The notes beneath the pieces are model-generated. The model searched no databases. It worked only from the letters and a program-made list of their open reading frames with translations, and was not told the DNA's origin. From a phage: a DNA stretch of 64,000 bases. Below are positions 1 to 54,067 of the stretch, piece after piece (the stretch's first letter is position 1; each line of letters begins with the position of its first letter). Location: the sequence record PX880100.1, one strand, 5' to 3'. A program made the translations under genes and the position numbers.

Positions 1-464
1 CCTGGCTCAAACCCAAACCATTTACGAACTTCTGCAGCCCACATTTCACGAATAGATGTATTCGTACAGATTACCAAAGTTTTCTGGCCAAATTTATACG
101 CAAGCGCAAGGGCTAGGATAGTTTTACCAAATCCAGGCTTACCATTAATAATACAGGTATCATCGCATTCTTCGTATATTGGAAGCTGATCTTCTTCACG
201 CAGCTTGAACTTAGGTTCTGGTATATCTACCGGAGCTAATGTGCGTTTATCAACTAATTCGTATTTTACTCCTTTAGCATCTAATAAATCCAGACGCGTG
301 ATAGGAATCCACTTAATCTCTTTAGCAACAACACCACTATTCTTATACATAATAGGGTATTTACTAGTCATTGTCTCTATGTGATAAGTGGTTTGCTTAC
401 TACAATAATCCCAAAGTTCATCATCGGGCTTGAAATAGGCTTTATTAGATATAACAACCTTCAT
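1..464 (-). CDS. helicase-like P-loop ATPase, N-terminal part (gene runs past window start)
   Basis: Reverse-strand translation from ATG at 464..462 gives MKVV...INGKPGFGKTILALALAY (Walker A GxxGxGKT); start overlaps the stop of the upstream ORF (ATGA). Confidence 0.55.
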   Translation of the reverse strand, partial: MKVVISNKAYFKPDDELWDYCSKQTTYHIETMTSKYPIMYKNSGVVAKEIKWIPITRLDLLDAKGVKYELVDKRTLAPVDIPEPKFKLREEDQLPIYEECDDTCIINGKPGFGKTILALALAYKFGQKTLVICTNTSIREMWAAEVRKWFGFEP

Positions 465-958
465 AATTTTATTCTAAGTCTAGGAATTTCAGGCTCCTCT
501 TGATGGACTTGATAAATAACAGGGCTATTATTTACCAGAATATAGCTTATATAAGCTGGAACATAGGATAATACAAATGGATATGGAACTTTAGCTACAT
601 AGCATTGGTATTTTCCGTTATAAATTCTAGCTGAATGCAAAACTTTAGAGGTGACAACATCATAGAACGTAGTTTTCTTCCAGTTAATAAGATTTCCATC
701 AGAATCTATAAATTGGCTACGCTTTGACCCAACTAATTGAGACAACATTGATATTCTACCTCTAATAGGATAGAGCTTGTATGGTAATTCTTTCCGTTTC
801 TCAAATAGAATAAGCCTACGTTGAGAAAAAGTGCCAGGCAACTTCCTGTTATCTAGCACATATTTATTATACCTTGTTGTAATTACGGAATAATCACCTT
901 CTTGTTCAATTGATACAAATGCCCGTAAAGCATATACGGGCAATTTGAAATCAAGCAC
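461..958 (-). CDS. hypothetical protein (165 aa)
   Basis: Track ORF; 8-nt overlap with the polymerase gene and ATGA overlap with the downstream helicase gene; no motif recognised. Confidence 0.5.
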   Translation of the reverse strand: MLDFKLPVYALRAFVSIEQEGDYSVITTRYNKYVLDNRKLPGTFSQRRLILFEKRKELPYKLYPIRGRISMLSQLVGSKRSQFIDSDGNLINWKKTTFYDVVTSKVLHSARIYNGKYQCYVAKVPYPFVLSYVPAYISYILVNNSPVIYQVHQEEPEIPRLRIKL

Positions 959-3518
959 CGAGAATCCTTCTCACGTTATCCAAATCTTTACATACAGCAA
1001 TAAACTTATCATCCTTGTATTTGCTATGATCTGGATGCTCTTTATCCATTGCAGCTAGTTTCTTATACTCGAACTCTGCATCAAGTAATACACCCTTGAC
1101 ATAACGAGTATATTCATCATCATCAATACAAGCGATTGATGGGTGCTGTTTCTTCATCTTACCACAAGAATAGTCACGAGAACCTCCAGCTTCAGAATCT
1201 GAGTCAATACCAATCGGACAACCAGGAATACTGATACCACGGTCTTTCTGAATATTACGAATCAGGATTTCATTGTATTGGTCGATCAAATCCTCACGAA
1301 CAATAGCAACTACGGAGTCGTGAACCAGCATAACAATCTTCATCTCTTGTTCTAGGCCAAGAGAAATGATCTCATTATCTGCATCTACAGCACCTAAAAG
1401 GAGACTATCAGAAGAAGCAGACTGAATGATTGCGTTAAATCCAGAACGGATTTCTTCACCCTGAACACCACGGTCTTCGGAATGGATATTATGCAGACGA
1501 CGTTTACGCCCAAAGTGACTATAGATAAATCCATGATTCTTGATCTGGTCGTGACATTTATCAATCCAACGCTTAAGCTGCGGGAACTGACCGAAGTAAG
1601 TTTCGATATAGTCCTTCGCATCCGCAACAGTACACTCTACAAACGGTTCTCCTGTCTTAGCAGCCTGTTCCAAAAGAGCTTCGTTAACAGAATGAGCTAC
1701 CTTAGCCGGGCCAGAACCATACAAAATACCAAAGGTGATTGCTTTAGCTGCTTGACGCAGAGCTGGGAATAACTTTTTAACATCACGAGGCTCGCATTGG
1801 AGCTTAAATACCATGTGTGCGATGTTAGAGTGGAAGTCAGGGTATTTATCTGGTTCATTTCTCATGTTGATAAATACTTGTTGCATATTTCTATCACCAG
1901 ATAGAACAGCAGCATAATAAACTTCCGCAGTTGTTAAGTCCCATGCAATTACACGATACCCGGGAGGGGCTACTACACAACCCTTGATAATAGATTCATC
2001 ACGAGGTAACTGTTGCAGATTCAGTTTACCAGAAGAACTCAGACGACCAGAAGTAGTCATATGTTCATGGAAGCCAGTACGAATGCAACCATCAGCATCA
2101 ATGCTCAGAAGAATCTTCTCAACGTAAGTAGAGATCAGCTTAGTCAGCTTACGAATCTCTAGTAGGGTCTTAGCAATTGGATGCTGCGTAGACAATTCGT
2201 TCAGAGCTTCTGCATCTGTAGAGTCTGCTCCAGTATCCGTCAATTTACCTGTTGGAGTTAAGCCAACATAATCAAACAGAAGAACACGGAGTTGTTTAAC
2301 AGAGTTTGGGTTAAACGCTTCGTTCTGATCTTTCTCTAGCTGAACGACTTCTGGATAAGTATACAGCTTTTCACGAGCTTTATTCAGATTATGAGTTAAC
2401 TGGTACTGTGCTTCTTTCAAGCGATCAATAGAAATTGGTACACCACGATCTTCAACACGCTGGAGAAATACGCAACCAGGCATTAGAACATCATAATACA
2501 GACTGCAAAGTTTTTCATTCTTCTCAATTTTTGGTAAGAAGAAATTGTGCAAACGTAGGGTGGCATCGGTATCTTTTGCAGCGTAAGGCCACATAATATC
2601 AAACGGAATTAAATCATAGGTGAAATCTTCTTTCTTGATCTTATGTGCTTTGCAGTAATCATCCTTGAACTTATCTAGTTCAAAGTCATAGTCACCCATA
2701 TCGGTATACTTCATTGCTAGAGATTTCAAGCCATGAGTACCACGACGTTCATCTAGAACATAATGCTGCAACATAGTATCATGGAGCCTGCGTTCTTTAT
2801 GCGCTTTATCAAAAGTAAGTCCCAGATGGTACTTATAAAAGTGCATATCAAACTTCAAGTTGTGAAAAACAATAGTGTGGTTTTCACTATCCAGAATTTT
2901 CTGGAGATAATATACTGCAACCTCTGTGAGACAATCAGAATCGATATATACACCCTGATATTCTTGGTGAGACATAGAAACACCAAGCAGATAACCATCT
3001 CGACAGTATAGTGCTGAGGTTTCGGAGTCGAATGCGACAGGTCCGATAACCATATTATACACCATCTTGATATATTCTTCCGCCTCGTCAGGGTCAGTAA
3101 TAGGACGGTAATCACCAGCTTTTGCAATCTTCTCACGACCATTGATAATATCGTGGATATTTTCTACTGTTGCATCGAAAACTGGTTTCATTTCAGGCTT
3201 AAAGTGTAACTGGGCTGGGCTGATACTCGCAATCCAGTTAGCATATCCATTATACTCTACACGTTTACCAGTATAGTCACCAATGCCTTTCTTACCTGCG
3301 AAATACAGGAAAGGTTCAGCACCTACCAGTATAACAAAATCATAATCATTCGGGTCAAATGGGTTTTCCGGAGTCCCAATAGTAATATGCTTTTTGAGCA
3401 AACGACCGGATAACTTCTCGTTACACATATGGAATACATCAACTTCCTCGCCGTATAGCTGGAAATGTTTATCGTAACGAGTGTTATTTAGAGCTTTATC
3501 AACTACTGCGATTTTCAA
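951..3518 (-). CDS. DNA polymerase, family A (Pol I-like) with 3'-5' exonuclease domain
   Basis: 855 aa; exonuclease motif FDSETSALY, polymerase motif B KAITFGILYGSG, motif C-like LVHDSVV; matches T5-type replicative polymerase architecture. Confidence 0.93.
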   Translation of the reverse strand: MKIAVVDKALNNTRYDKHFQLYGEEVDVFHMCNEKLSGRLLKKHITIGTPENPFDPNDYDFVILVGAEPFLYFAGKKGIGDYTGKRVEYNGYANWIASISPAQLHFKPEMKPVFDATVENIHDIINGREKIAKAGDYRPITDPDEAEEYIKMVYNMVIGPVAFDSETSALYCRDGYLLGVSMSHQEYQGVYIDSDCLTEVAVYYLQKILDSENHTIVFHNLKFDMHFYKYHLGLTFDKAHKERRLHDTMLQHYVLDERRGTHGLKSLAMKYTDMGDYDFELDKFKDDYCKAHKIKKEDFTYDLIPFDIMWPYAAKDTDATLRLHNFFLPKIEKNEKLCSLYYDVLMPGCVFLQRVEDRGVPISIDRLKEAQYQLTHNLNKAREKLYTYPEVVQLEKDQNEAFNPNSVKQLRVLLFDYVGLTPTGKLTDTGADSTDAEALNELSTQHPIAKTLLEIRKLTKLISTYVEKILLSIDADGCIRTGFHEHMTTSGRLSSSGKLNLQQLPRDESIIKGCVVAPPGYRVIAWDLTTAEVYYAAVLSGDRNMQQVFINMRNEPDKYPDFHSNIAHMVFKLQCEPRDVKKLFPALRQAAKAITFGILYGSGPAKVAHSVNEALLEQAAKTGEPFVECTVADAKDYIETYFGQFPQLKRWIDKCHDQIKNHGFIYSHFGRKRRLHNIHSEDRGVQGEEIRSGFNAIIQSASSDSLLLGAVDADNEIISLGLEQEMKIVMLVHDSVVAIVREDLIDQYNEILIRNIQKDRGISIPGCPIGIDSDSEAGGSRDYSCGKMKKQHPSIACIDDDEYTRYVKGVLLDAEFEYKKLAAMDKEHPDHSKYKDDKFIAVCKDLDNVRRILGA

Positions 3519-20185: not shown

Positions 20186-20258
20186 ATATTTGTAAGTTGA
20201 TAAACAAGATCTTTTTGTTGATCCTCTGTTAGCGAAGTACACTATAGGAGTGTTATTT

Positions 20259-21011
20259 ATGGGAAAAGCACGTCAAAAAAGAGAGAACCGCAATGGTTCA
20301 AGAAAGCGTGGCAACAAGTATGAGAATAACGTAATTCAGGCTGATTTTTCTAATGATTACGCTAACCCAGTTGCTAAATCCCTAGTAGGTAAAAACCGCG
20401 AGCAAAAATCATATATCAATATGATCAAGAACAACACAGTGACTGTGGGTATTGGTGAGCCAGGTACAGGTAAAACCTTTATTCCGTCTGTTCTTGCAGC
20501 TCAGGAACTTGTAGACATTCACTCAGATATTGAGCAAGTGATCCTCGTACGTCCTAATGAACCTCTAGGTAAGTCTCTTGGTATGCTTCCTGGTGATCTA
20601 GCGGAAAAGCTAGAGCCTTGGTTGGAGCCAATAGCTGATGGTATGAAATGGGCCATCGGCGATCATGCATATAAAGGATATGTCGAACGTCAGAAAATTA
20701 AATTTTTGGCTATCGAACATGCTCGTGGCAGAACTTTCAACAACTCCTATGTAATTGTCGACGAAGCTCAGAATATTTCCGTTGAGGCAATGATTTGTCT
20801 CCTAACTCGTGTAGGGCAAGACTGCCGTTTAATTATCTGCGGAGATATAGCTCAGAAAGACATTAAAGGTGACTCAGGTCTAGCACTCCTTATGGAAGTC
20901 TATGAGAAATACGAAAATGCCCCCTTCTCAATGATCGAATTGATTGATAACGTTCGTTCTGTTGAGTCTAAAGCATTCTATGATATTTTTAAAGACATGG
21001 GGAAGGTGTAA
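20259..21011 (+). CDS. phoH: PhoH-like P-loop ATPase
   Basis: Walker A GIGEPGTGKTF; ATG at 20259 with AGGAG RBS (track ORF starts at in-frame GTG 20250). Confidence 0.8.
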   Translation: MGKARQKRENRNGSRKRGNKYENNVIQADFSNDYANPVAKSLVGKNREQKSYINMIKNNTVTVGIGEPGTGKTFIPSVLAAQELVDIHSDIEQVILVRPNEPLGKSLGMLPGDLAEKLEPWLEPIADGMKWAIGDHAYKGYVERQKIKFLAIEHARGRTFNNSYVIVDEAQNISVEAMICLLTRVGQDCRLIICGDIAQKDIKGDSGLALLMEVYEKYENAPFSMIELIDNVRSVESKAFYDIFKDMGKV

Positions 21012-47598: not shown

Positions 47599-48297
47599 AT
47601 GAGGATTATTTCTAAGTTCGCCGATGTGTATGATTTGCAGAACAGTTTGTTAGACCCAGATCGTGTTTGGGAACGTAAAACTGAAGAGTTGCTGGTTAAA
47701 GTAACCGATGATGCAGAAAAGAACATTGTGCACACTCGCCAGGTATTTCGTGATGGTTCGCTATCTTTCCGTGGTGATTTCGAATATTTTGTAAACCCAC
47801 TATTTGTTGCAGGTGAAGTTTACTGGTTACACGAGCTATACTGCTGGCATCCAGCATTTAGCTTCAAAACGTTTAATCTCGACACTATGTTCGATAAAAT
47901 GGAAGAGATGGGATTGCATGCTCGTTCTTACTTAATGGATAAGAGTCGCGGAGATGTTCGTGAAACAATGCGTGATTTGCTCGCTGAAGCAAAACCTAAA
48001 GCAGAACGTATCTTATCCGAACTGCGTGTACCGATTGCATATGTGAAAGGTATTAAAAAGAACGATAACGATGATGTTCGTAACTTCGTGATTCAGACTA
48101 ACATTCGTTTCCATCAGTCAGGTATTCCGTGGCAGGAAATTGAAAGTAACTTATACCGTTTACACCAAGTTCTCGAACAGTATATCTTTGGAGTACTAGG
48201 AACTGGTGAGCCTGATATGATTAAAGTATCAGATAAAGACAGGTTAGCAGCGCATGGATTTGATACAAAAACTTCTTTCAGGAATATGGCACGGTAA
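47599..48297 (+). CDS. hypothetical protein (232 aa)
   Basis: Track ORF with AGAGGAT RBS. Confidence 0.5.
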   Translation: MRIISKFADVYDLQNSLLDPDRVWERKTEELLVKVTDDAEKNIVHTRQVFRDGSLSFRGDFEYFVNPLFVAGEVYWLHELYCWHPAFSFKTFNLDTMFDKMEEMGLHARSYLMDKSRGDVRETMRDLLAEAKPKAERILSELRVPIAYVKGIKKNDNDDVRNFVIQTNIRFHQSGIPWQEIESNLYRLHQVLEQYIFGVLGTGEPDMIKVSDKDRLAAHGFDTKTSFRNMAR

Positions 48298-48703
48298 GTG
48301 GTATATCCTGGGAGCAGGTCTAGCGATAGGCATCGGGTTTGGTACTTATCACTTAGTAGATAAAGTGGAGACTCTAGCAGGTGATCTTGCAGTAGCTACT
48401 AAAAAGATCTCTTCTCTAGAGACTTCGCTTAATAAGGTGAAAGCTGAAAGCGAACTTCGTGAGACTAGAATGAATCAGTATTTCACGATGAATAACATTT
48501 CGCAAACAGATCTAGACAAAAAGATTAAGCAGTTAGATAAAGCTCTTAGTCGACAAGATATTATAGCTGCAAAGCCTGGATTGGTAACATTAATTGCTAA
48601 AAAGCAGAGTAAAGAGTTCGAGGAAAGATTAGCGTGTTTAACTGGAAACTTGGAATACTGCTCGCAGCCGCAATCACAATCACAGGCTGTGCAGAAGAAA
48701 TAA
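48254..48703 (+). CDS. candidate i-spanin (TM anchor plus coiled coil)
   Basis: 149 aa; one N-terminal TM helix (WYILGAGLAIGIGFGTY) followed by helical, charged periplasmic-type sequence; lipoprotein gene embedded in its 3' end. Confidence 0.45.
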   Translation: MDLIQKLLSGIWHGKWYILGAGLAIGIGFGTYHLVDKVETLAGDLAVATKKISSLETSLNKVKAESELRETRMNQYFTMNNISQTDLDKKIKQLDKALSRQDIIAAKPGLVTLIAKKQSKEFEERLACLTGNLEYCSQPQSQSQAVQKK

Positions 48704-48987
48704 AACCAGAGCCATCTCATGAGTTAAAGCAAGCTCATGTAGACTGGCCTAAAGGACTTCAACCGTGTAGCTTTGACTTTAAGTTTGAAAAGAAATTAGC
48801 TACAAATGGAGAAGATGGCGTAGTAGTTGTTGTACCATATAAAGATTGGAATATGTTGGCAAAATGCCGTGAGGCAGAATATTCATATATTTCACGACTG
48901 ACTGGTATGGTTTGCTTCTATCGCCAAGATTTACAAGAAAAACGTTGCTTAGTTTACTATCCACCAATTAACAATAGGAAAGATTAA
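48634..48987 (+). CDS. candidate o-spanin (outer-membrane lipoprotein)
   Basis: 117 aa; GTG start with GAGGAAAG RBS inside the preceding gene; signal peptide with lipobox-like LAAAITITGC; stop overlaps dNMP kinase ATG. Confidence 0.45.
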   Translation: MFNWKLGILLAAAITITGCAEEIKPEPSHELKQAHVDWPKGLQPCSFDFKFEKKLATNGEDGVVVVVPYKDWNMLAKCREAEYSYISRLTGMVCFYRQDLQEKRCLVYYPPINNRKD

Positions 48988-49739
48988 TGTCAGTATTAGT
49001 CGGTTTACATGGTGAAGCTGGTTCGGGAAAAGATACCGTTGCAAAATTAATTATCGATTGGTGTAATGACACGTATCCAACGTGTTTATCCCGTCGTTAT
49101 AGTTTTGCTAAGCCCGTTTATGAACTTGCATCCGTAATCCTCGGTGTAACTCCAGAGTTTCTAGGAGAGCGCAGGGGAAAAGAGATTGACCAATGGTTTA
49201 CGGTCACACAATCTCAGTTGGAGCGAGCCAGGGATGTATGGTTTAAGTACGGTATCGATAAGTTCGAAGATTTCTCGTACGTTTGGCCTATTTTTGAGGA
49301 AAAATATCTTAATCCTCAACAACTTATATCAGAGAATAAAGAAGACGGTCTTTATAGTTTATTTATTTCTCCGAGAAAAATGTTACAGCTCGTAGGAACA
49401 GAGCTAGGAAGGCAGCTGGTGCATGAACGCATTTGGCTCATAATTCTGGAGCAATCCATCTCTAAAGACGACCCAGATGTCGCCGTAATAACAGATGTTA
49501 GATTCCCCAATGAAGGAGAGCTACTCAGAGAAACAAACCATTTAGATATGGATTCTTTGATAGTAAATGTAGTACCAGCTGAGCAGAAGTTCACTATTAA
49601 ATCAGATCATCCATCTGAAAGTGGTATTCCTGCAAAATATATTACTCACGAATTAGTTAATAAATTCGATGGTATCAATAACCTTAAACTAGAAGTTTAT
49701 AACTTCTGTGACTTAGAGCTAGAACCACTAGTTGGATAA
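48987..49739 (+). CDS. dnk: deoxynucleoside monophosphate kinase
   Basis: 250 aa; P-loop LVGLHGEAGSGKDT at the N-terminus. Confidence 0.7.
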   Translation: MSVLVGLHGEAGSGKDTVAKLIIDWCNDTYPTCLSRRYSFAKPVYELASVILGVTPEFLGERRGKEIDQWFTVTQSQLERARDVWFKYGIDKFEDFSYVWPIFEEKYLNPQQLISENKEDGLYSLFISPRKMLQLVGTELGRQLVHERIWLIILEQSISKDDPDVAVITDVRFPNEGELLRETNHLDMDSLIVNVVPAEQKFTIKSDHPSESGIPAKYITHELVNKFDGINNLKLEVYNFCDLELEPLVG

Positions 49740-49751
49740 TCAAGGATCGCT

Positions 49752-50351
49752 ATGACTAATAAAAAAGAAGAAAAGACTAACCTGTTTCACTCCATTCGCC
49801 AATCTAATGAGTATACCTTTTTCTTTGATGAAGAATTAGGCCCGCCGGATGAATACCGTGATTTATCAATGGTACTTATGCAGGCAAATGAGGACGACGA
49901 AATTAATCTGATGATTAATGGCCCAGGTGGTTATGTTGATACTGCTGCACAGTTATCTAACTTAATTGCTAATTGCCGTGGAACAGTTATAGGGCATCTG
50001 GTTGGTCCTAGTGCTTCTGCTTACTGTACAATTTTCCTATCCTGTCATGGATGGGTAGTACATCCACATGCTACGCTAATGGGACACACGTTCTCTGGCG
50101 GATTCTGTGAGAAGGGTCAAGAAATCAAGAAAGCCTATGAATCTTACAACAAGTTCGTAGAAGATATGATGCTAGATGTCTACTATCCGTTCTTCTCAAT
50201 AGACGAAATCGACGAGATGGTAAAAGACAACAAAAATATCTATCTAGATAGCAAAGAAATCCATAAGCGTATTGAAATCTTGGCGAAATATCGATCTGAG
50301 CAGTATAATAAAGCCCAGTTACCTCAATCCGAGGAGTATAACGAAGAGTAA
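49752..50351 (+). CDS. ClpP-like serine peptidase (S14 family-like)
   Basis: 199 aa; INGPGGYVDTAAQ (cf. ClpP INSPGG), GPSASAYCTIF (catalytic Ser context), VVHPH (His). Confidence 0.55.
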   Translation: MTNKKEEKTNLFHSIRQSNEYTFFFDEELGPPDEYRDLSMVLMQANEDDEINLMINGPGGYVDTAAQLSNLIANCRGTVIGHLVGPSASAYCTIFLSCHGWVVHPHATLMGHTFSGGFCEKGQEIKKAYESYNKFVEDMMLDVYYPFFSIDEIDEMVKDNKNIYLDSKEIHKRIEILAKYRSEQYNKAQLPQSEEYNEE

Positions 50352-50360
50352 GTAGTTTTA

Positions 50361-50393
50361 AGCCAGGGTTTAACGACCCTGGCTTTTCTTTTA
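50361..50393 (+). terminator. rho-independent terminator
   Basis: AGCCAGGG...CCCTGGCT hairpin followed by TTTCTTTTAT; approximate. Confidence 0.6.
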
Positions 50394-50454
50394 TCTAAAA
50401 TTCTTCTTGACAACGACAAAATTTTGTGCTCCAAAGAAAATCTTTAAAAACACA

Positions 50455-50482
50455 TTGTAATTTTCCTCCAAAATTAGTATAA
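50455..50482 (+). promoter_or_regulatory. promoter for the holin-endolysin pair
   Basis: TTGTAA -35-like, 16-bp spacer, TATAAT; approximate. Confidence 0.45.
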
Positions 50483-50507
50483 TGGTACTGGTTAGAGGAG
50501 GTTACAA

Positions 50508-51164
50508 TTGGAAAAGTTCTTACAATTATTAACGGTACTGCTCCAAGAAGCGAAAGATCCAGCATCGCTTCTTAAACGTCTGCTAACTATCTTAGTTGCT
50601 GTCATTATTTTCTTATTTGTTAGTAATACTAGCGAGGTGATGTCATTCTTAAAGACTTTCTCCACGTCTGCGGTTCTACAGGATGTTCAAACTCAAAGGA
50701 TAGATAACTTTCCTAATGTAGCTAGAGAAAAGAGCATGGTACTCTTTTCTCAAACGGGTGCGGATGCTGTTTTTGTAGTCAAGTATAAACCCGATGCCAT
50801 TAATGATTATTCTAACATTATTGCATGGGAAAGCAATGCGCAATTAGATAGGGCTGACTTGGCCGATAAAGCAGTAAATAAAACGTCTGAGCTATACAGA
50901 CGTCACTTAGAGGGCTTTAACTACGCATCGGATTTAAGTGTAAGAGTAAATAAATATACGGGGTTAAATATACCTGCGTTTAAGAATGTTACTTTTAATT
51001 ACATATACACTTGTCCATATTTCAATCTAAACAATATCTATGCTGGATATATTGGTATTGCTTGGAAAGATAATCCTGTAGATGCAGCCGATTCTGAGAA
51101 ATTCAAGGAATATTTAACAAAGCTCTGTTCCCCACAACAGAGATCTTTAGGTAGATCAATATGA
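50508..51164 (+). CDS. holin-like membrane protein
   Basis: 218 aa; TTG start after GAGGAGG RBS; TM segment LLTILVAVIIFLFV; stop overlaps endolysin ATG (ATGA). Confidence 0.5.
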   Translation: MEKFLQLLTVLLQEAKDPASLLKRLLTILVAVIIFLFVSNTSEVMSFLKTFSTSAVLQDVQTQRIDNFPNVAREKSMVLFSQTGADAVFVVKYKPDAINDYSNIIAWESNAQLDRADLADKAVNKTSELYRRHLEGFNYASDLSVRVNKYTGLNIPAFKNVTFNYIYTCPYFNLNNIYAGYIGIAWKDNPVDAADSEKFKEYLTKLCSPQQRSLGRSI

Positions 51165-51574
51165 GTTTTAAATTTGGTAAAAACAGCGAAAAACAATTAG
51201 CTACCGTTAAGCCAGAGCTACAAAAAGTAGCTCGTAGAGCTTTAGAATTATCTCCATATGATTTCACGATCGTACAGGGTATTCGTACAGTAGCACAAAG
51301 TGCCCAGAATATTGCTAATGGTACCTCATTTTTAAAAGATCCTAGTAAAAGCAAGCATATTACTGGGGATGCGCTTGATTTTGCTCCATATATTAATGGC
51401 AAAATTGATTGGAATGACTTAGAAGCATTTTGGGCGGTTAAAAAGGCTTTTGAACAAGCGGGTAAAGAACTAGGTATTAAACTTCGTTTTGGTGCTGATT
51501 GGAATAACTCCGGAGACTATCACGATGAAATAAAACGTGGTACCTATGACGGCGGTCATGTCGAACTAGTTTAA
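51161..51574 (+). CDS. lys: endolysin, L-alanyl-D-glutamate peptidase (M15 family)
   Basis: 137 aa; zinc-ligand pattern SKHITGDALDF ... GDYHDEIKRGTYDGGHVE typical of M15/VanY-type peptidases. Confidence 0.8.
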   Translation: MSFKFGKNSEKQLATVKPELQKVARRALELSPYDFTIVQGIRTVAQSAQNIANGTSFLKDPSKSKHITGDALDFAPYINGKIDWNDLEAFWAVKKAFEQAGKELGIKLRFGADWNNSGDYHDEIKRGTYDGGHVELV

Positions 51575-52143: not shown

Positions 52144-52575
52144 ATGTCTGATCGTTTCTATACTCAAATGGCGGAGCATTTTCGTATACCACATTACGAG
52201 CTAAACATTGCACTCCGTGATCATGACTCTCCTGAGTACAAAAAGCTCGAAAAGAAAGCGGAAAAATCTATTGATACAAAGGTAGGTGCATCTATGTCTA
52301 AGGGCAAAAAGTTAACTCGTCTTGATCTTAATAAAATTTTAACTGAACTTTTGGGTACTGATATTGAGGGTGCTAAATTACCGCTTATTGTACTAGAGAC
52401 TATGATTAAAAAGGTCAAAAATAAAGAATATAAGAAGGTAGAAGTCCCAGAAGGCAGATTAAAGGCTCCTTATCAGGAAGCATTAACCGAGTGTTTGGGT
52501 GTAAATCTTGATCTGAGCACCGCAACCGTAAAAACTATGAAAAACTTCTTAGAGGCCATTAATAACTATGAGTAA
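52144..52575 (+). CDS. hypothetical protein (143 aa)
   Basis: Track ORF downstream of promoter. Confidence 0.5.
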   Translation: MSDRFYTQMAEHFRIPHYELNIALRDHDSPEYKKLEKKAEKSIDTKVGASMSKGKKLTRLDLNKILTELLGTDIEGAKLPLIVLETMIKKVKNKEYKKVEVPEGRLKAPYQEALTECLGVNLDLSTATVKTMKNFLEAINNYE

Positions 52576-52858
52576 ATTAGTATATCTATTGAAAGGTTCC
52601 ACCTGCAATCCTTGCAAGATGTTTGAGCCAGTATTTGATAAAGTAGTCAGTGACTATAATTTGGAAATCCATAAAGAGACTGATAATACAGAATTAATGC
52701 AGAAATTTGGTGTGCGCCAAGTTCCTGTAGTAGTTCTAGCAGATCGCTTACCTAATGGTCGAGTAGAAGCCAATCATATTTTGATTGGACGTCAGCTTCG
52801 TAAAGAAACTATGCACGAAGCTATTAAAAATTTCCTGGATGATAATCCAGAGGACTAA
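52568..52858 (+). CDS. thioredoxin/glutaredoxin-like protein
   Basis: 96 aa; N-terminal CxxC active-site-like motif STCNPCK. Confidence 0.55.
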   Translation: MSKLVYLLKGSTCNPCKMFEPVFDKVVSDYNLEIHKETDNTELMQKFGVRQVPVVVLADRLPNGRVEANHILIGRQLRKETMHEAIKNFLDDNPED

Positions 52859-52955: not shown

Positions 52956-53201
52956 ATGTTAGCGGAACAGGCAAAACGTTTAGCCAGGATAAATAGAGCT
53001 GCCCTTCTTAAGAGCAGAAAGAAACCATATAAATATGTTAAAAAGAGAATAGTTTCTTCTGTGGGGATTGGAGGTTCTTTTGTACAGTTTAATCGTGATG
53101 AAATCAGTTATGAGGCTATAAAAGCCCTCTATAAAGAGGGTTATACTCTACAACTATCTAATGATTATGGCACAACTATTTTAACTGTTATTTGGGAATA
53201 A
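52956..53201 (+). CDS. hypothetical protein (81 aa)
   Basis: Track ORF. Confidence 0.5.
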   Translation: MLAEQAKRLARINRAALLKSRKKPYKYVKKRIVSSVGIGGSFVQFNRDEISYEAIKALYKEGYTLQLSNDYGTTILTVIWE

Positions 53202-53203
53202 TT

Positions 53204-54067
53204 ATGAAAAAAGAATTTAATGTACATAAAACTCTAGTAGTGCCAGATGACGCCAACTTGTTTTTCGTCGGTGATATTCATGGATGCAATGATTTGCTAG
53301 AAGATGCACTGAAATTAGCTGGGTATAATAGCAAAAAAGATTGCTTAGTATGTGTTGGTGACTTAATTGACCGAGGCACACAAAACCTACAAGTTTTAGC
53401 CAAATTCCTGTATAATCCACATTTTGTCAGTGTCCGTGGTAATCACGACCAGTTTATGATTGCAGGAGATTGGGCTAATTGGATGTATAACGGTGGTATA
53501 TGGGCTATGGAAGAGCTGGATGCAGACACCATTAAAAATATCGCCGAAGATATGGCTGAAAAAATGCCAGTATTCCTAACTGTTAGACATCGTGGTAAGA
53601 AGTATGGTGTTGTTCATGGTGGTGTACCTTTTACATACAAAGAATGCGGTAATGAGGTAGAAACCCCAGTATGGGATAATCTTATTGCACAAGTAGAAGC
53701 AGCTAAGGAAGACCCACATGACCATCCTGGATACCATATTGAACCATATTTATGGGATCGAGATGTAATCCAAGAAATAGGCTTCTACTTGTCCAAAAAC
53801 GGTGAGGAACATCCGTATTTTCAGCGTTATGCAGGATTTAAAGAAAAATACATGGTAGAAGTGCCCGAAGTTAAAGGGGTAGATTTCGTGTTTCATGGAC
53901 ATACTGGAGTACCTTACCCACTTCTTTATAAAAACCGTGTTTACCTTGATACTGGCGGTGTTTTCAACGGGCAGTTGACGGTTGCGCAAGTTAACGATGA
54001 AACTGGCAAAATCACCACATTTACCACAGACAAAAATAATAGCTGCGGTGTACAGAGGATTCTTTAA
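53204..54067 (+). CDS. Ser/Thr protein phosphatase (calcineurin-like metallophosphoesterase)
   Basis: Motifs GDIHGC, GDLIDRG, GNHD in canonical order; ATG at 53204 (track frame begins at TTG 53192). Confidence 0.8.
   Translation: MKKEFNVHKTLVVPDDANLFFVGDIHGCNDLLEDALKLAGYNSKKDCLVCVGDLIDRGTQNLQVLAKFLYNPHFVSVRGNHDQFMIAGDWANWMYNGGIWAMEELDADTIKNIAEDMAEKMPVFLTVRHRGKKYGVVHGGVPFTYKECGNEVETPVWDNLIAQVEAAKEDPHDHPGYHIEPYLWDRDVIQEIGFYLSKNGEEHPYFQRYAGFKEKYMVEVPEVKGVDFVFHGHTGVPYPLLYKNRVYLDTGGVFNGQLTVAQVNDETGKITTFTTDKNNSCGVQRIL

What the first reader, a model, noticed from the sequence alone, without database searches (positions are those of the whole stretch)
49752..50351. ClpP-like peptidase in the early region
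Motifs resembling ClpP (INGPGG, GPSASAY with a serine, HPH) occur in a 199-aa protein encoded next to dNMP kinase and upstream of the lysis genes, not in a head-assembly context visible in this window. It may be a regulatory protease rather than a prohead protease.
Basis: partly seen in the sequence, partly recalled or inferred. Interest (0 to 1): 0.35.

Follow-up and report, generated by a model that had tools for sequence, protein, structure and literature searches.

The report
T5-type phage ClpP-like early protease
This is the long-annotated but functionally uncharacterised ClpP-like protease gene of T5-type phages: a real ClpP-fold protein, separate from the phage's head protease, in which asparagine replaces the third catalytic residue.

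Summary
The ORF at 49752-50351 (+, 199 aa) is real, and the window is a T5-like phage (Demerecviridae) early region. The protein passes Pfam CLP_protease, matches PHROG 1827 end to end, and its AlphaFold model superposes on solved ClpP. It is already annotated as "Clp protease" in about 440 phage records, T5 itself included. A 2023 BF23 paper calls its function unknown.

- **Active site:** Ser89 and His112 are invariant in 164 relatives. The ClpP catalytic Asp position is Asn162 in every T5 and Epseptimavirus-type sequence, but Asp or Glu in 91% of the wider family. dN/dS of 0.04-0.08 shows the Asn form is under selection.
- **Not canonical ClpP:** it falls far below the NCBIfam ClpP cut-off. 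It lacks the N-terminal axial loop and helix A, and the partner-docking pocket is not conserved.
- **Not the head protease:** T5-type genomes carry a separate S78 head protease beside the capsid gene. This gene sits in a conserved spanin-dnk-clp | holin-endolysin block, and relatives in eight other phage lineages sit among early or DNA-metabolism genes.

Most likely it is an early cytoplasmic ClpP-fold serine peptidase with an attenuated Ser-His-Asn triad. Its substrate is unknown. The finding is ordinary and already known.

The parts
49752..50351 (+). CDS of the 199-aa ClpP-like protein (PHROG 1827; T5/BF23 'Clp protease')
   Evidence: ORF. Pfam CLP_protease. PHROG 1827 E=6.5e-90. 440 phage records match. 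dN/dS 0.04-0.08.
49742..49746 (+). Shine-Dalgarno-like AAGGA, 5 nt before the ATG
   Evidence: Read directly from the sequence. M1 is invariant in the family alignment.
49914..49931 (+). INGPGG (residues 55-60). G59 and G60 are invariant; G60 aligns to E. coli ClpP Gly68, the oxyanion-hole region.
   Evidence: G59 and G60 are present in 164/164 sequences. G60 maps to EcClpP Gly68.
50016..50018 (+). Codon TCT for Ser89, the predicted nucleophile (aligns to ClpP Ser97)
   Evidence: Alignments to ClpP chains. Ser in 164/164 sequences.
50085..50087 (+). Codon CAC for His112, the predicted general base (aligns to ClpP His122)
   Evidence: Alignments to ClpP chains. His in 163/164 sequences.
50235..50237 (+). 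Codon AAT for Asn162, at the position of the ClpP catalytic Asp171
   Evidence: The family 'gkDiWl' Asp aligns to the Asp of the (N/D/E)RD motif (NRDYFL, DRDYYL, ERDFFM) of solved ClpP chains. In the wider family this column is D 133, E 17, N 8, T 4. It is Asn (AAT or AAC) in every intact T5 and Epseptimavirus-type locus.
50360..50395 (+). Intrinsic-terminator-like hairpin (11-bp stem, 6 G-C pairs) plus a T-rich tail, ending the p232-spanin-dnk-clp transcription unit
   Evidence: Pattern scan; sequence.
50455..50483 (+). Sigma-70-like promoter (TTGTAA-17-TATAAT) ahead of holin and endolysin
   Evidence: This is a consensus match only; the total number of such matches in the region was no higher than in shuffled sequence.
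48987..49739 (+). Context: dNMP kinase (dnk), apparently co-transcribed, immediately upstream
   Evidence: Pfam DNMK E=1.7e-11; PHROG 139 E=5.9e-52.
48254..48987 (+). Context: overlapping i-spanin (48254-48703) and o-spanin (48634-48987) genes
   Evidence: PHROG 739 and PHROG 812, both Rz-like spanin.
50508..51574 (+). Context: T-type holin (50508-51164) and M15 endolysin (51161-51574)
   Evidence: Pfam Phage_holin_T E=2.8e-112; PHROG 465 endolysin E=1.3e-54.

Best explanation
The gene encodes a cytoplasmic serine peptidase with the ClpP fold, expressed from the early region. It belongs to a phage-specific subfamily (PHROG 1827 and its wider relatives) that is distinct both from cellular ClpP and from the phage's own prohead protease.

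**Shown**
- The fold is ClpP-like, including the long handle helix.
- The nucleophile Ser89, the general base His112 and the Gly-Gly of the oxyanion region are invariant.
- The third triad position is Asn162 throughout the T5 and Epseptimavirus-type lineage, and the gene is under strong purifying selection.
- It appears to be the last gene of a p232-spanin-dnk-clp transcription unit that ends in a terminator-like hairpin.

**Inferred**
- It cuts peptides or proteins by Ser-His catalysis.
- Its intrinsic activity is attenuated or conditional because of the Ser-His-Asn triad.
- It works without canonical ClpX/ClpA docking.
- It acts on host or phage proteins during early or middle infection, as an auxiliary protein-turnover or processing function. 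It does not mature the capsid.

The substrate is unknown.
For: **ClpP homology**
- Pfam CLP_protease is above its cut-off.
- The family profile matches PDB ClpP chains at E=6.5e-18.
- The AlphaFold model (pLDDT 81.6) gives only ClpP among the top 50 Foldseek PDB hits.

**Active site**
- Ser89 is present in 164/164 sequences, His112 in 163/164, and G59/G60 in 164/164.
- Asn162 occupies the ClpP Asp position.
- Asn is fixed in every intact T5-type locus, including T5 itself (L032). More distant Demerecviridae have Asp.

**Selection**
- dN/dS is 0.04-0.08.
- It is one of 8 core genes at over 80% identity across 185 Tequintavirus genomes (PMC12639943).

**Not the head protease**
- A separate Peptidase_S78 head protease sits beside the major head protein in T5_ev212.
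- The gene order p232-spanins-dnk-clp-holin-endolysin is conserved down to 31% Clp identity.
- Relatives lie among early, replication or auxiliary genes in eight other phage lineages: Pakpunavirus PaP1, Barbavirus, Schizotequatrovirus phi-Grn1, Shandongvirus H101, Certrevirus P7_Pc, Boevelstad, Stoningtonvirus VBP32 and Acinetobacter MD-2021a.

**Not canonical ClpP**
- TIGR00493 scores 15.9 bits against a cut-off of 308.6.
- Residues 1-19 are disordered and there is no helix before strand 1.
- The E. coli ClpP pocket residues Y60, Y62, F82, I90, M92, F112 and L114 align to N52, M54, N74, H82, V84, V102 and H104.

**Precedent for Ser-His-Asn**
- Listeria ClpP1 (Ser98-His123-Asn172) is an inactive heptamer on its own. 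It lacks chaperone-binding sites and becomes active in a ClpP1/ClpP2 heterocomplex (PMC9257651).
Against: - No biochemical, genetic or expression data exist for this protein in the searchable literature.
- The Asp-to-Asn change might abolish activity.
- The protein was detected at low intensity in purified BF23 virions (PMC10644984). That leaves a virion or assembly-related role open.
- By sequence it is closer to phage ClpP-related head-maturation protease models than to cellular ClpP. It scores E=7.8e-21 against PHROG 1684 and E=2e-10 against NF045542, but only E=7e-5 against the best cellular ClpP model.
Confidence: 0.6

Rival explanations
1. It is an accessory head or virion-associated protease. 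On this reading it is a second maturation protease packaged into, or acting on, the T5 capsid or an internal protein.
For: - Its closest annotated sequence relatives are ClpP-type head maturation proteases: PHROG 1684 E=7.8e-21, PHROG 94 E=1.8e-12 and NF045542 E=2e-10.
- BF23 virion mass spectrometry found 3 peptides of it.
- Some RefSeq records name it 'head maturation protease'.
- Relatives carry acidic, helical C-terminal tails reminiscent of scaffold domains.
Against: - It scores below the NF045542 cut-off (40.9 against 120).
- The gene lies about 77 kb from the head module, in an early-strand operon.
- Its virion signal was about 25-fold below that of the prohead protease, and below that of dihydrofolate reductase, an early enzyme. 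This fits carry-over.
- None of the non-Demerecviridae relatives examined lies next to capsid genes.
Confidence: 0.1
2. It is a lysis-timing factor. On this reading the protease processes or degrades a lysis protein (holin, antiholin-like factor or spanin), which explains how a lysis cassette in the early region is held back until late.
For: - The gene sits inside a split lysis block (spanins-dnk-clp | holin-endolysin) that is conserved across Demerecviridae.
- In Vibrio phage 234P1 the gene overlaps the endolysin start.
- An endolysin or cell-wall hydrolase lies within 5 kb in H101, PaP1, Boevelstad and Acinetobacter MD-2021a.
Against: - The protein has no signal peptide or transmembrane segment, whereas most of the T-type holin and the spanins lie outside the cytoplasm.
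- A terminator-like hairpin and a promoter-like site separate it from holin and endolysin.
- The relative in phi-Grn1 sits among replication genes with no lysis gene nearby.
- The proximity statistic is post hoc and covers few independent lineages.
Confidence: 0.1
3. It is a modulator of the host Clp machinery. On this reading a catalytically weak ClpP-like ring (Ser-His-Asn, like Listeria ClpP1) stacks on or mixes with host ClpP, or titrates its partners. That would re-programme or block host ClpXP/ClpAP proteolysis.
For: - It has the same triad composition as Listeria ClpP1 and the same lack of chaperone-docking features. ClpP1 is active only in a heterocomplex.
- The handle helix is retained.
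- The Listeria ClpP1/2 structure 4ryf is among the top Foldseek hits (rank 11).
Against: - Identity to bacterial ClpP is only about 17-23%, so a conserved ring-ring interface is doubtful.
- Most family members keep Asp or Glu, so the Asn state is a lineage peculiarity and not the family's defining property.
- There are no interaction data.
Confidence: 0.08
4. It is the proteolytic partner of the phage PhoH-like ATPase, the two together forming a phage-encoded two-component ATP-dependent protease.
For: - A PhoH gene lies adjacent to, or within about 2 kb upstream of, the Clp-like gene in Barbavirus, Alteromonas V22, Shandongvirus H101, Certrevirus P7_Pc and Acinetobacter MD-2021a.
- The window also encodes a PhoH homologue, at 20250-21011.
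- Both genes are among the 8 high-identity core genes of Tequintavirus.
Against: - In T5-type phages the two genes are about 29 kb apart.
- PhoH is very common in large phages, so co-occurrence may be incidental.
- From general knowledge, PhoH-family proteins are related to RNA-helicase/YbeZ-type ATPases and are not AAA+ unfoldases.
Confidence: 0.05

Closest known systems
Bacterial ClpP (MEROPS S14; e.g. E. coli ClpP 1tyf/3mt6, Coxiella 3q7h, Thermus 6hwn)
   Same: - Same alpha/beta fold with a handle helix.
- Same nucleophile context, G-x-x-A-S-A/M.
- Same His position.
- Same Gly-Gly oxyanion region, (I/L)N(S/G)PGG.

   Different: - Only about 17-23% identity.
- Far below the NCBIfam ClpP equivalog cut-off.
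- No N-terminal axial loop or helix A.
- The hydrophobic docking pocket is not conserved.
- Asn stands in place of the catalytic Asp.
- It has a long C-terminal helix with an acidic tail.
Listeria monocytogenes ClpP1 (Ser98-His123-Asn172)
   Same: - A natural Ser-His-Asn triad.
- No AAA+ chaperone-docking features.
(PMC9257651)
   Different: - ClpP1 is a bona fide cellular ClpP paralogue with a cognate ClpP2 partner ring.
- No partner is known for the phage protein.
- The Asn arose independently within a phage-specific family.
ClpP-related phage head-maturation proteases (NCBIfam NF045542; PHROG 1684, 94, 26628)
   Same: - These are the closest sequence models after the protein's own PHROG family.
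- Same ClpP-like catalytic core.
   Different: - Below the family cut-off (40.9 against 120 bits).
- Not in a head module.
- The genome has its own S78 prohead protease.
- No fused scaffold or capsid domain.
PHROG 1827 / PHROG 5410 'ATP-dependent protease' of large virulent phages (T5, BF23 ORF45, PaP1 gp041, KVP40-like, Barba, H101)
   Same: - This is the family the protein belongs to: a full-length match at E=6.5e-90.
- Members share early or auxiliary gene contexts.
   Different: - The T5 and Epseptimavirus-type clade has Asn162, with Tyr91 and Ser115, where most members have Asp or Glu.
- Some relatives carry acidic C-terminal extensions of 100-160 aa.

Membership tests
Pfam CLP_protease (PF00574) / MEROPS clan SK, S14-like fold | Domain HMM score above the gathering threshold | tested here: met
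   33.7 bits against a cut-off of 20.2, E=4.2e-8, covering residues 41-139.
Pfam CLP_protease (PF00574) / MEROPS clan SK, S14-like fold | ClpP alpha/beta fold with a handle helix | tested here: met
   The AlphaFold model has pLDDT 81.6 and pTM 0.77. The top 50 Foldseek PDB hits are all ClpP, with E down to 1.2e-9 and TM-scores of 0.56-0.71.
Canonical ClpP (TIGR00493 / PRK00277 equivalog) | Score above the curated equivalog cut-off | tested here: not met
   TIGR00493 scores 15.9 against 308.6. PRK00277 scores 22.8 against 249.
Canonical ClpP (TIGR00493 / PRK00277 equivalog) | Ser-His-Asp catalytic triad | tested here: not met
   Ser89 and His112 are aligned and invariant. The Asp position is Asn162, codon AAT. 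No conserved acidic residue lies nearby: D159 and D166 both vary within the Asn clade.
Canonical ClpP (TIGR00493 / PRK00277 equivalog) | N-terminal axial loops and helix A, plus a hydrophobic pocket for the IGF/LGF loops of ClpX/ClpA | tested here: not met
   Residues 1-19 are unaligned and of low confidence, with no helix before strand 1. The pocket residues map to N52, M54, N74, H82, V84, V102 and H104. The list of E. coli pocket residues comes from memory.
Canonical ClpP (TIGR00493 / PRK00277 equivalog) | Tetradecameric barrel of two heptameric rings, and ATP-dependent degradation with an AAA+ partner | not testable with these tools
   No multimer prediction or biochemistry was available.
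ClpP-related phage head maturation protease (NF045542) | HMM score above the cut-off | tested here: not met
   40.9 bits against a cut-off of 120.
ClpP-related phage head maturation protease (NF045542) | Encoded in the head-morphogenesis module (portal, protease/scaffold, major capsid) and acting as the genome's prohead protease | tested here: not met
   The gene lies between dnk and the holin in the early region. T5_ev212 has a Peptidase_S78 head protease between the decoration and major head protein genes.
PHROG 1827 (Demerecviridae 'ATP-dependent protease') | Full-length profile match | tested here: met
   E=6.5e-90, residues 1-198 matching profile positions 5-201 of 202.
S49 SppA / NfeD membrane-bound ClpP-class proteases | HMM membership, a Ser-Lys dyad and a membrane anchor | tested here: not met
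   NfeD1b_N scores 19.1 bits against a cut-off of 40. The family has an invariant His at the ClpP His position. The sequence has no hydrophobic segment.

The most novel reading that the evidence does not exclude
The fixed Ser-His-Asn triad and the missing chaperone-docking features could make the T5 protein a functional analogue of Listeria ClpP1. That would mean a ring that is inert alone and becomes active, or acts as a poison, only when stacked on a partner ring such as host ClpP. Alternatively it might be driven by the phage PhoH-like ATPase. Either way, the phage would be re-wiring host regulated proteolysis early in infection.
Probability: 0.08. Interest if true: 0.7.

Novelty: already known. 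Interest (0 to 1): 0.3.

Why it matters
The gene is one of the most conserved core genes of T5-type phages, which are widely used as therapeutic and biocontrol phages. It has relatives in many large virulent phages, yet nobody knows what it does.

This work makes three points clear:
- It is not the capsid protease.
- It is not a canonical ClpP.
- In the T5 lineage it carries a selected Ser-His-Asn triad.

Together these define a tractable biochemical question: is it active alone, and on what? As a scan finding it is a re-discovery of an annotated gene.

Tried and rejected
HPH (residues 104-106) was rejected as the catalytic motif. H104 and H106 are poorly conserved (H106 in 44/164 sequences), and the ClpP His aligns to H112.
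- **S49/NfeD membership:** rejected, because the NfeD1b_N score is below its cut-off.
- **Defence-system link:** PADLOC gave no hit.
- **Broad locus search:** The search for related loci with the 63-sequence alignment A2 failed for lack of a conserved stretch. It was repeated with A1.
- **E. coli ClpP mapping of the Asp:** hmmalign of E. coli ClpP to the family HMM truncated the C-terminal part. The mapping of Asp171 to N162 therefore rests on the Coxiella, Thermus and ClpP2 alignments, not on E. coli.
- **Literature:** searches on T5 with Clp/ClpP, on phage-encoded ClpP-like proteins, and on T5 transcriptomics found no functional or timing data. One search failed on a term that was too short.
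- **Compensating acidic residue:** D159 or D166 was considered and rejected. Both vary within the Asn clade: D159 to E or N, and D166 to N or S.
- **Pseudogene hypothesis:** rejected on dN/dS of 0.04-0.08.
- **Single origin of Asn:** the NJ tree is too rough to say whether Asn arose once or twice. P0007 falls apart from the T5 clade.
- **Triad geometry:** the His112-Asn162 distance could not be measured, because model coordinates are not exposed.

Full report
**1. What is there**

The window is the early region of a T5-like phage (Demerecviridae). The 600-bp query matches 440 phage records at 80-99.5% identity. Window positions 7-2261 align to the DNA polymerase and downstream-gene region of T5_ev212 in reverse orientation. 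The window therefore runs leftwards through the early genes and contains no late or structural module.

An AAGGA ribosome-binding site lies 5 nt upstream. The quoted motifs INGPGG (55-60), GPSASAY (85-91) and HPH (104-106) are all present.

**2. Is it ClpP-like?**

Yes, well beyond chance:
- Pfam CLP_protease scores 33.7 bits against a gathering score of 20.2 (E=4.2e-8).
- PHROG 1827 "ATP-dependent protease" matches end to end at E=6.5e-90.
- A single-sequence search of the PDB finds Coxiella ClpP at E=1.9e-5.
- A 63-sequence family profile finds ClpP chains at E=6.5e-18.
- An AlphaFold2 model (mean pLDDT 81.6, pTM 0.77) gives only ClpP structures among its top 50 Foldseek PDB hits (E from 1.2e-9).
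- In the viral structure library it matches homologous "Clp protease" proteins of many phages.

A full HMMER scan of 1.84 billion representative proteins shows the family is large. It found 500 clusters at E<=1e-30 and 2465 at E<=1e-10, mostly proteins of 180-320 aa.

**3. The catalytic residues**

In an alignment of 164 family members, Ser89 is present in 164/164, His112 in 163/164 and Gly59-Gly60 in 164/164. Against E. coli ClpP, whose sequence was verified identical to PDB 3mt6, these map as follows:
- Ser89 to Ser97
- His112 to His122
- Gly60 to Gly68

The family's conserved motif G-K-D-(I/F)-(W/Y)-(L/F) aligns with high posterior probability to the (N/D/E)-R-D motif that holds the catalytic Asp in solved ClpP chains. 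In the window protein that position is Asn162 (codon AAT, 50235-50237).

Across the wider family the column reads Asp 133, Glu 17, Asn 8, Thr 4. Asn (AAT or AAC) is present in every intact T5 and Epseptimavirus-type locus examined, including T5 itself (L032, the 121,750-bp contig). More distant Demerecviridae, from Pectobacterium, Klebsiella and Vibrio, have Asp.

The nearby acidic residues D159 and D166 are not conserved within the Asn clade. No obvious substitute carboxylate exists.

The Asn state travels with Tyr91 and Ser/Thr115, whereas the nearest Asp-bearing relatives have Ala91 and Arg115.

dN/dS against relatives is 0.04-0.08. An independent study lists the gene as one of eight core genes at over 80% identity in 185 Tequintavirus genomes (PMC12639943). 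The Ser-His-Asn form is therefore selected, not decaying.

H106 is present in only 44/164 sequences, and the segment corresponds to the ClpP "LPN" segment.

**4. Not a canonical ClpP**

- NCBIfam's ClpP equivalog scores 15.9 bits against a cut-off of 308.6.
- Residues 1-19 are predicted disordered, and there is no helix before the first strand. The N-terminal axial loop and helix A of ClpP therefore have no counterpart.
- The E. coli residues recalled from memory as forming the IGF-loop docking pocket are Y60, Y62, F82, I90, M92, F112 and L114. They align to N52, M54, N74, H82, V84, V102 and H104.

**5. Not the prohead protease**

T5_ev212 encodes a separate 210-aa head protease between the decoration protein and major head protein genes. 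That protein is a Peptidase_S78 / PHROG 80 head-maturation protease.

The Clp-like gene lies about 77 kb away. Its local order is:
- p232 (47599-48297)
- i-spanin (48254-48703)
- o-spanin (48634-48987)
- dNMP kinase (48987-49739)
- clp
- terminator-like hairpin (50360-50385 plus T tract)
- promoter-like site (50455-50483)
- T-type holin (50508-51164)
- M15 endolysin (51161-51574)

This order is conserved in Demerecviridae down to 31-36% Clp identity.

Outside the family, homologues sit among early, replication or auxiliary genes:

| Phage | Context |
|---|---|
| PaP1 gp041 | Small early ORFs upstream of dCMP deaminase and ligase |
| Boevelstad | Same arrangement as PaP1 |
| Barba phages | Between PhoH and Dam methylase |
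| KVP40-like phi-Grn1 | Between DHFR and a recombination protein |
| H101 | Near PhoH and a Ser/Thr phosphatase |
| P7_Pc | Downstream of PhoH, next to a methyltransferase |
| N4-like VBP32 | At the head of an array of small ORFs |
| Acinetobacter MD-2021a | Downstream of PhoH |

None is next to capsid genes.

The protein is nevertheless closer in sequence to phage ClpP-related head-maturation protease models than to cellular ClpP. It scores E=7.8e-21 against PHROG 1684 and 40.9 bits against NF045542 (below that model's cut-off of 120), against E=7e-5 for the best cellular ClpP model. This suggests the family descends from such proteases and has been re-deployed.

**6. What is known**

The only functional statement found is in the BF23 paper. 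The Clp protease (ORF45) was detected in purified virions with 3 peptides. [quoted passage not shown]

No expression, mutant or biochemical data were found.

For the Ser-His-Asn triad there is a natural precedent in Listeria ClpP1 (Ser98-His123-Asn172). On its own it is an inactive heptamer that cannot bind AAA+ partners. It becomes active when templated by a ClpP2 ring (PMC9257651).

**7. Best explanation and rivals**

Best explanation (confidence about 0.6): an early-expressed cytoplasmic ClpP-fold serine peptidase of a phage-specific subfamily. It uses Ser89 and His112, has activity attenuated or made conditional by Asn162, and works independently of canonical ClpX/ClpA docking. It serves an auxiliary protein-turnover or processing role, not capsid maturation.
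- Shown: homology, fold, residue conservation, selection and genomic context.
- Inferred: activity, localisation, timing and partner independence.

Rivals:
- An accessory virion or head protease (0.10).
- A lysis-timing protease, suggested by the conserved embedding in the split lysis block (0.10).
- A modulator or partner of host ClpP, in the manner of ClpP1 (0.08).
- A partner of the phage PhoH-like ATPase, suggested by PhoH-Clp adjacency or near-adjacency in five other lineages (0.05).

**8. Verdict**

The protein is ClpP-like and not the head protease. However, the triad is Ser-His-Asn rather than Ser-His-Asp, the cited HPH motif is irrelevant, and "regulatory" is untested.

The gene is already annotated in hundreds of genomes and belongs to a named PHROG family, so novelty is "already known". 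Residual interest lies in two things: the function of a highly conserved core gene is unknown, and the Asn substitution fixed in this lineage does not appear to be discussed in the papers found.

Noticed in passing
window 48254-48987 and 50508-51574: The lysis genes are split. Overlapping i-spanin and o-spanin genes lie upstream of dnk-clp. The T4-type holin (Pfam Phage_holin_T, E=2.8e-112) and the M15 endolysin lie downstream, behind a terminator-like hairpin and a promoter-like site. The whole block order is conserved across Demerecviridae.
   Followed up: partly
window 20250-21011 (+); loci L003, L086, L087, L090: The window encodes a PhoH-like ATPase about 29 kb from clp. In five other phage lineages the PhoH gene lies adjacent to, or within about 2 kb upstream of, the Clp-like gene: Barba, Alteromonas V22, Pseudoalteromonas H101, Pectobacterium P7_Pc and Acinetobacter MD-2021a. 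This may be a functional link or just a shared auxiliary-gene block.
   Followed up: partly
L004 4899-5861; L086 3941-4996; L087 3965-4942; window 50296-50348: Relatives of the Clp-like protein carry acidic C-terminal extensions of very different length. Vibrio 234P1 has 130 aa with 25% D+E, and H101 has about 160 aa with 24% D+E. The T5-type protein has only a short tail ending in SEEYNEE. Their role is unknown; they resemble scaffold-like or partner-docking tails.
   Followed up: no
family alignment, residues 91, 115 and 162 of the window protein: Three positions near the active site change together. Asp-bearing close relatives have Ala91/Arg115/Asp162, while the T5 clade and P0007 have Tyr91/Ser or Thr115/Asn162. 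In a rough NJ tree P0007 is not sister to the T5 clade, so the same combination may have arisen twice.
   Followed up: partly
L030 7945-8542 (phage OSYSP); P0013 (Salmonella phage KKP 3953): A few T5-like records have a disrupted clp gene: a frameshift giving a 166-aa product in OSYSP, and a 136-aa truncation in KKP 3953. These are either sequencing errors or natural loss, and could indicate that the gene is dispensable.
   Followed up: no
database hits H9 and P0002: Near-identical copies are filed under implausible organisms. These include 'Listeria phage LM 4-11-1' (a 3967-bp record), records labelled Campylobacter and Brucella melitensis, the last on a 115-kb contig. They are probably T5-like phage contamination or mislabelling in public records.
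   Followed up: no
window 53192-54067 and 52568-52858: A Ser/Thr protein phosphatase-like ORF (291 aa) and a thioredoxin-like ORF (96 aa) lie 2-3 kb downstream in the same orientation, according to the annotation of the syntenic T5_ev212 region. A phosphatase also neighbours the Clp-like gene in phage H101.
   Followed up: no
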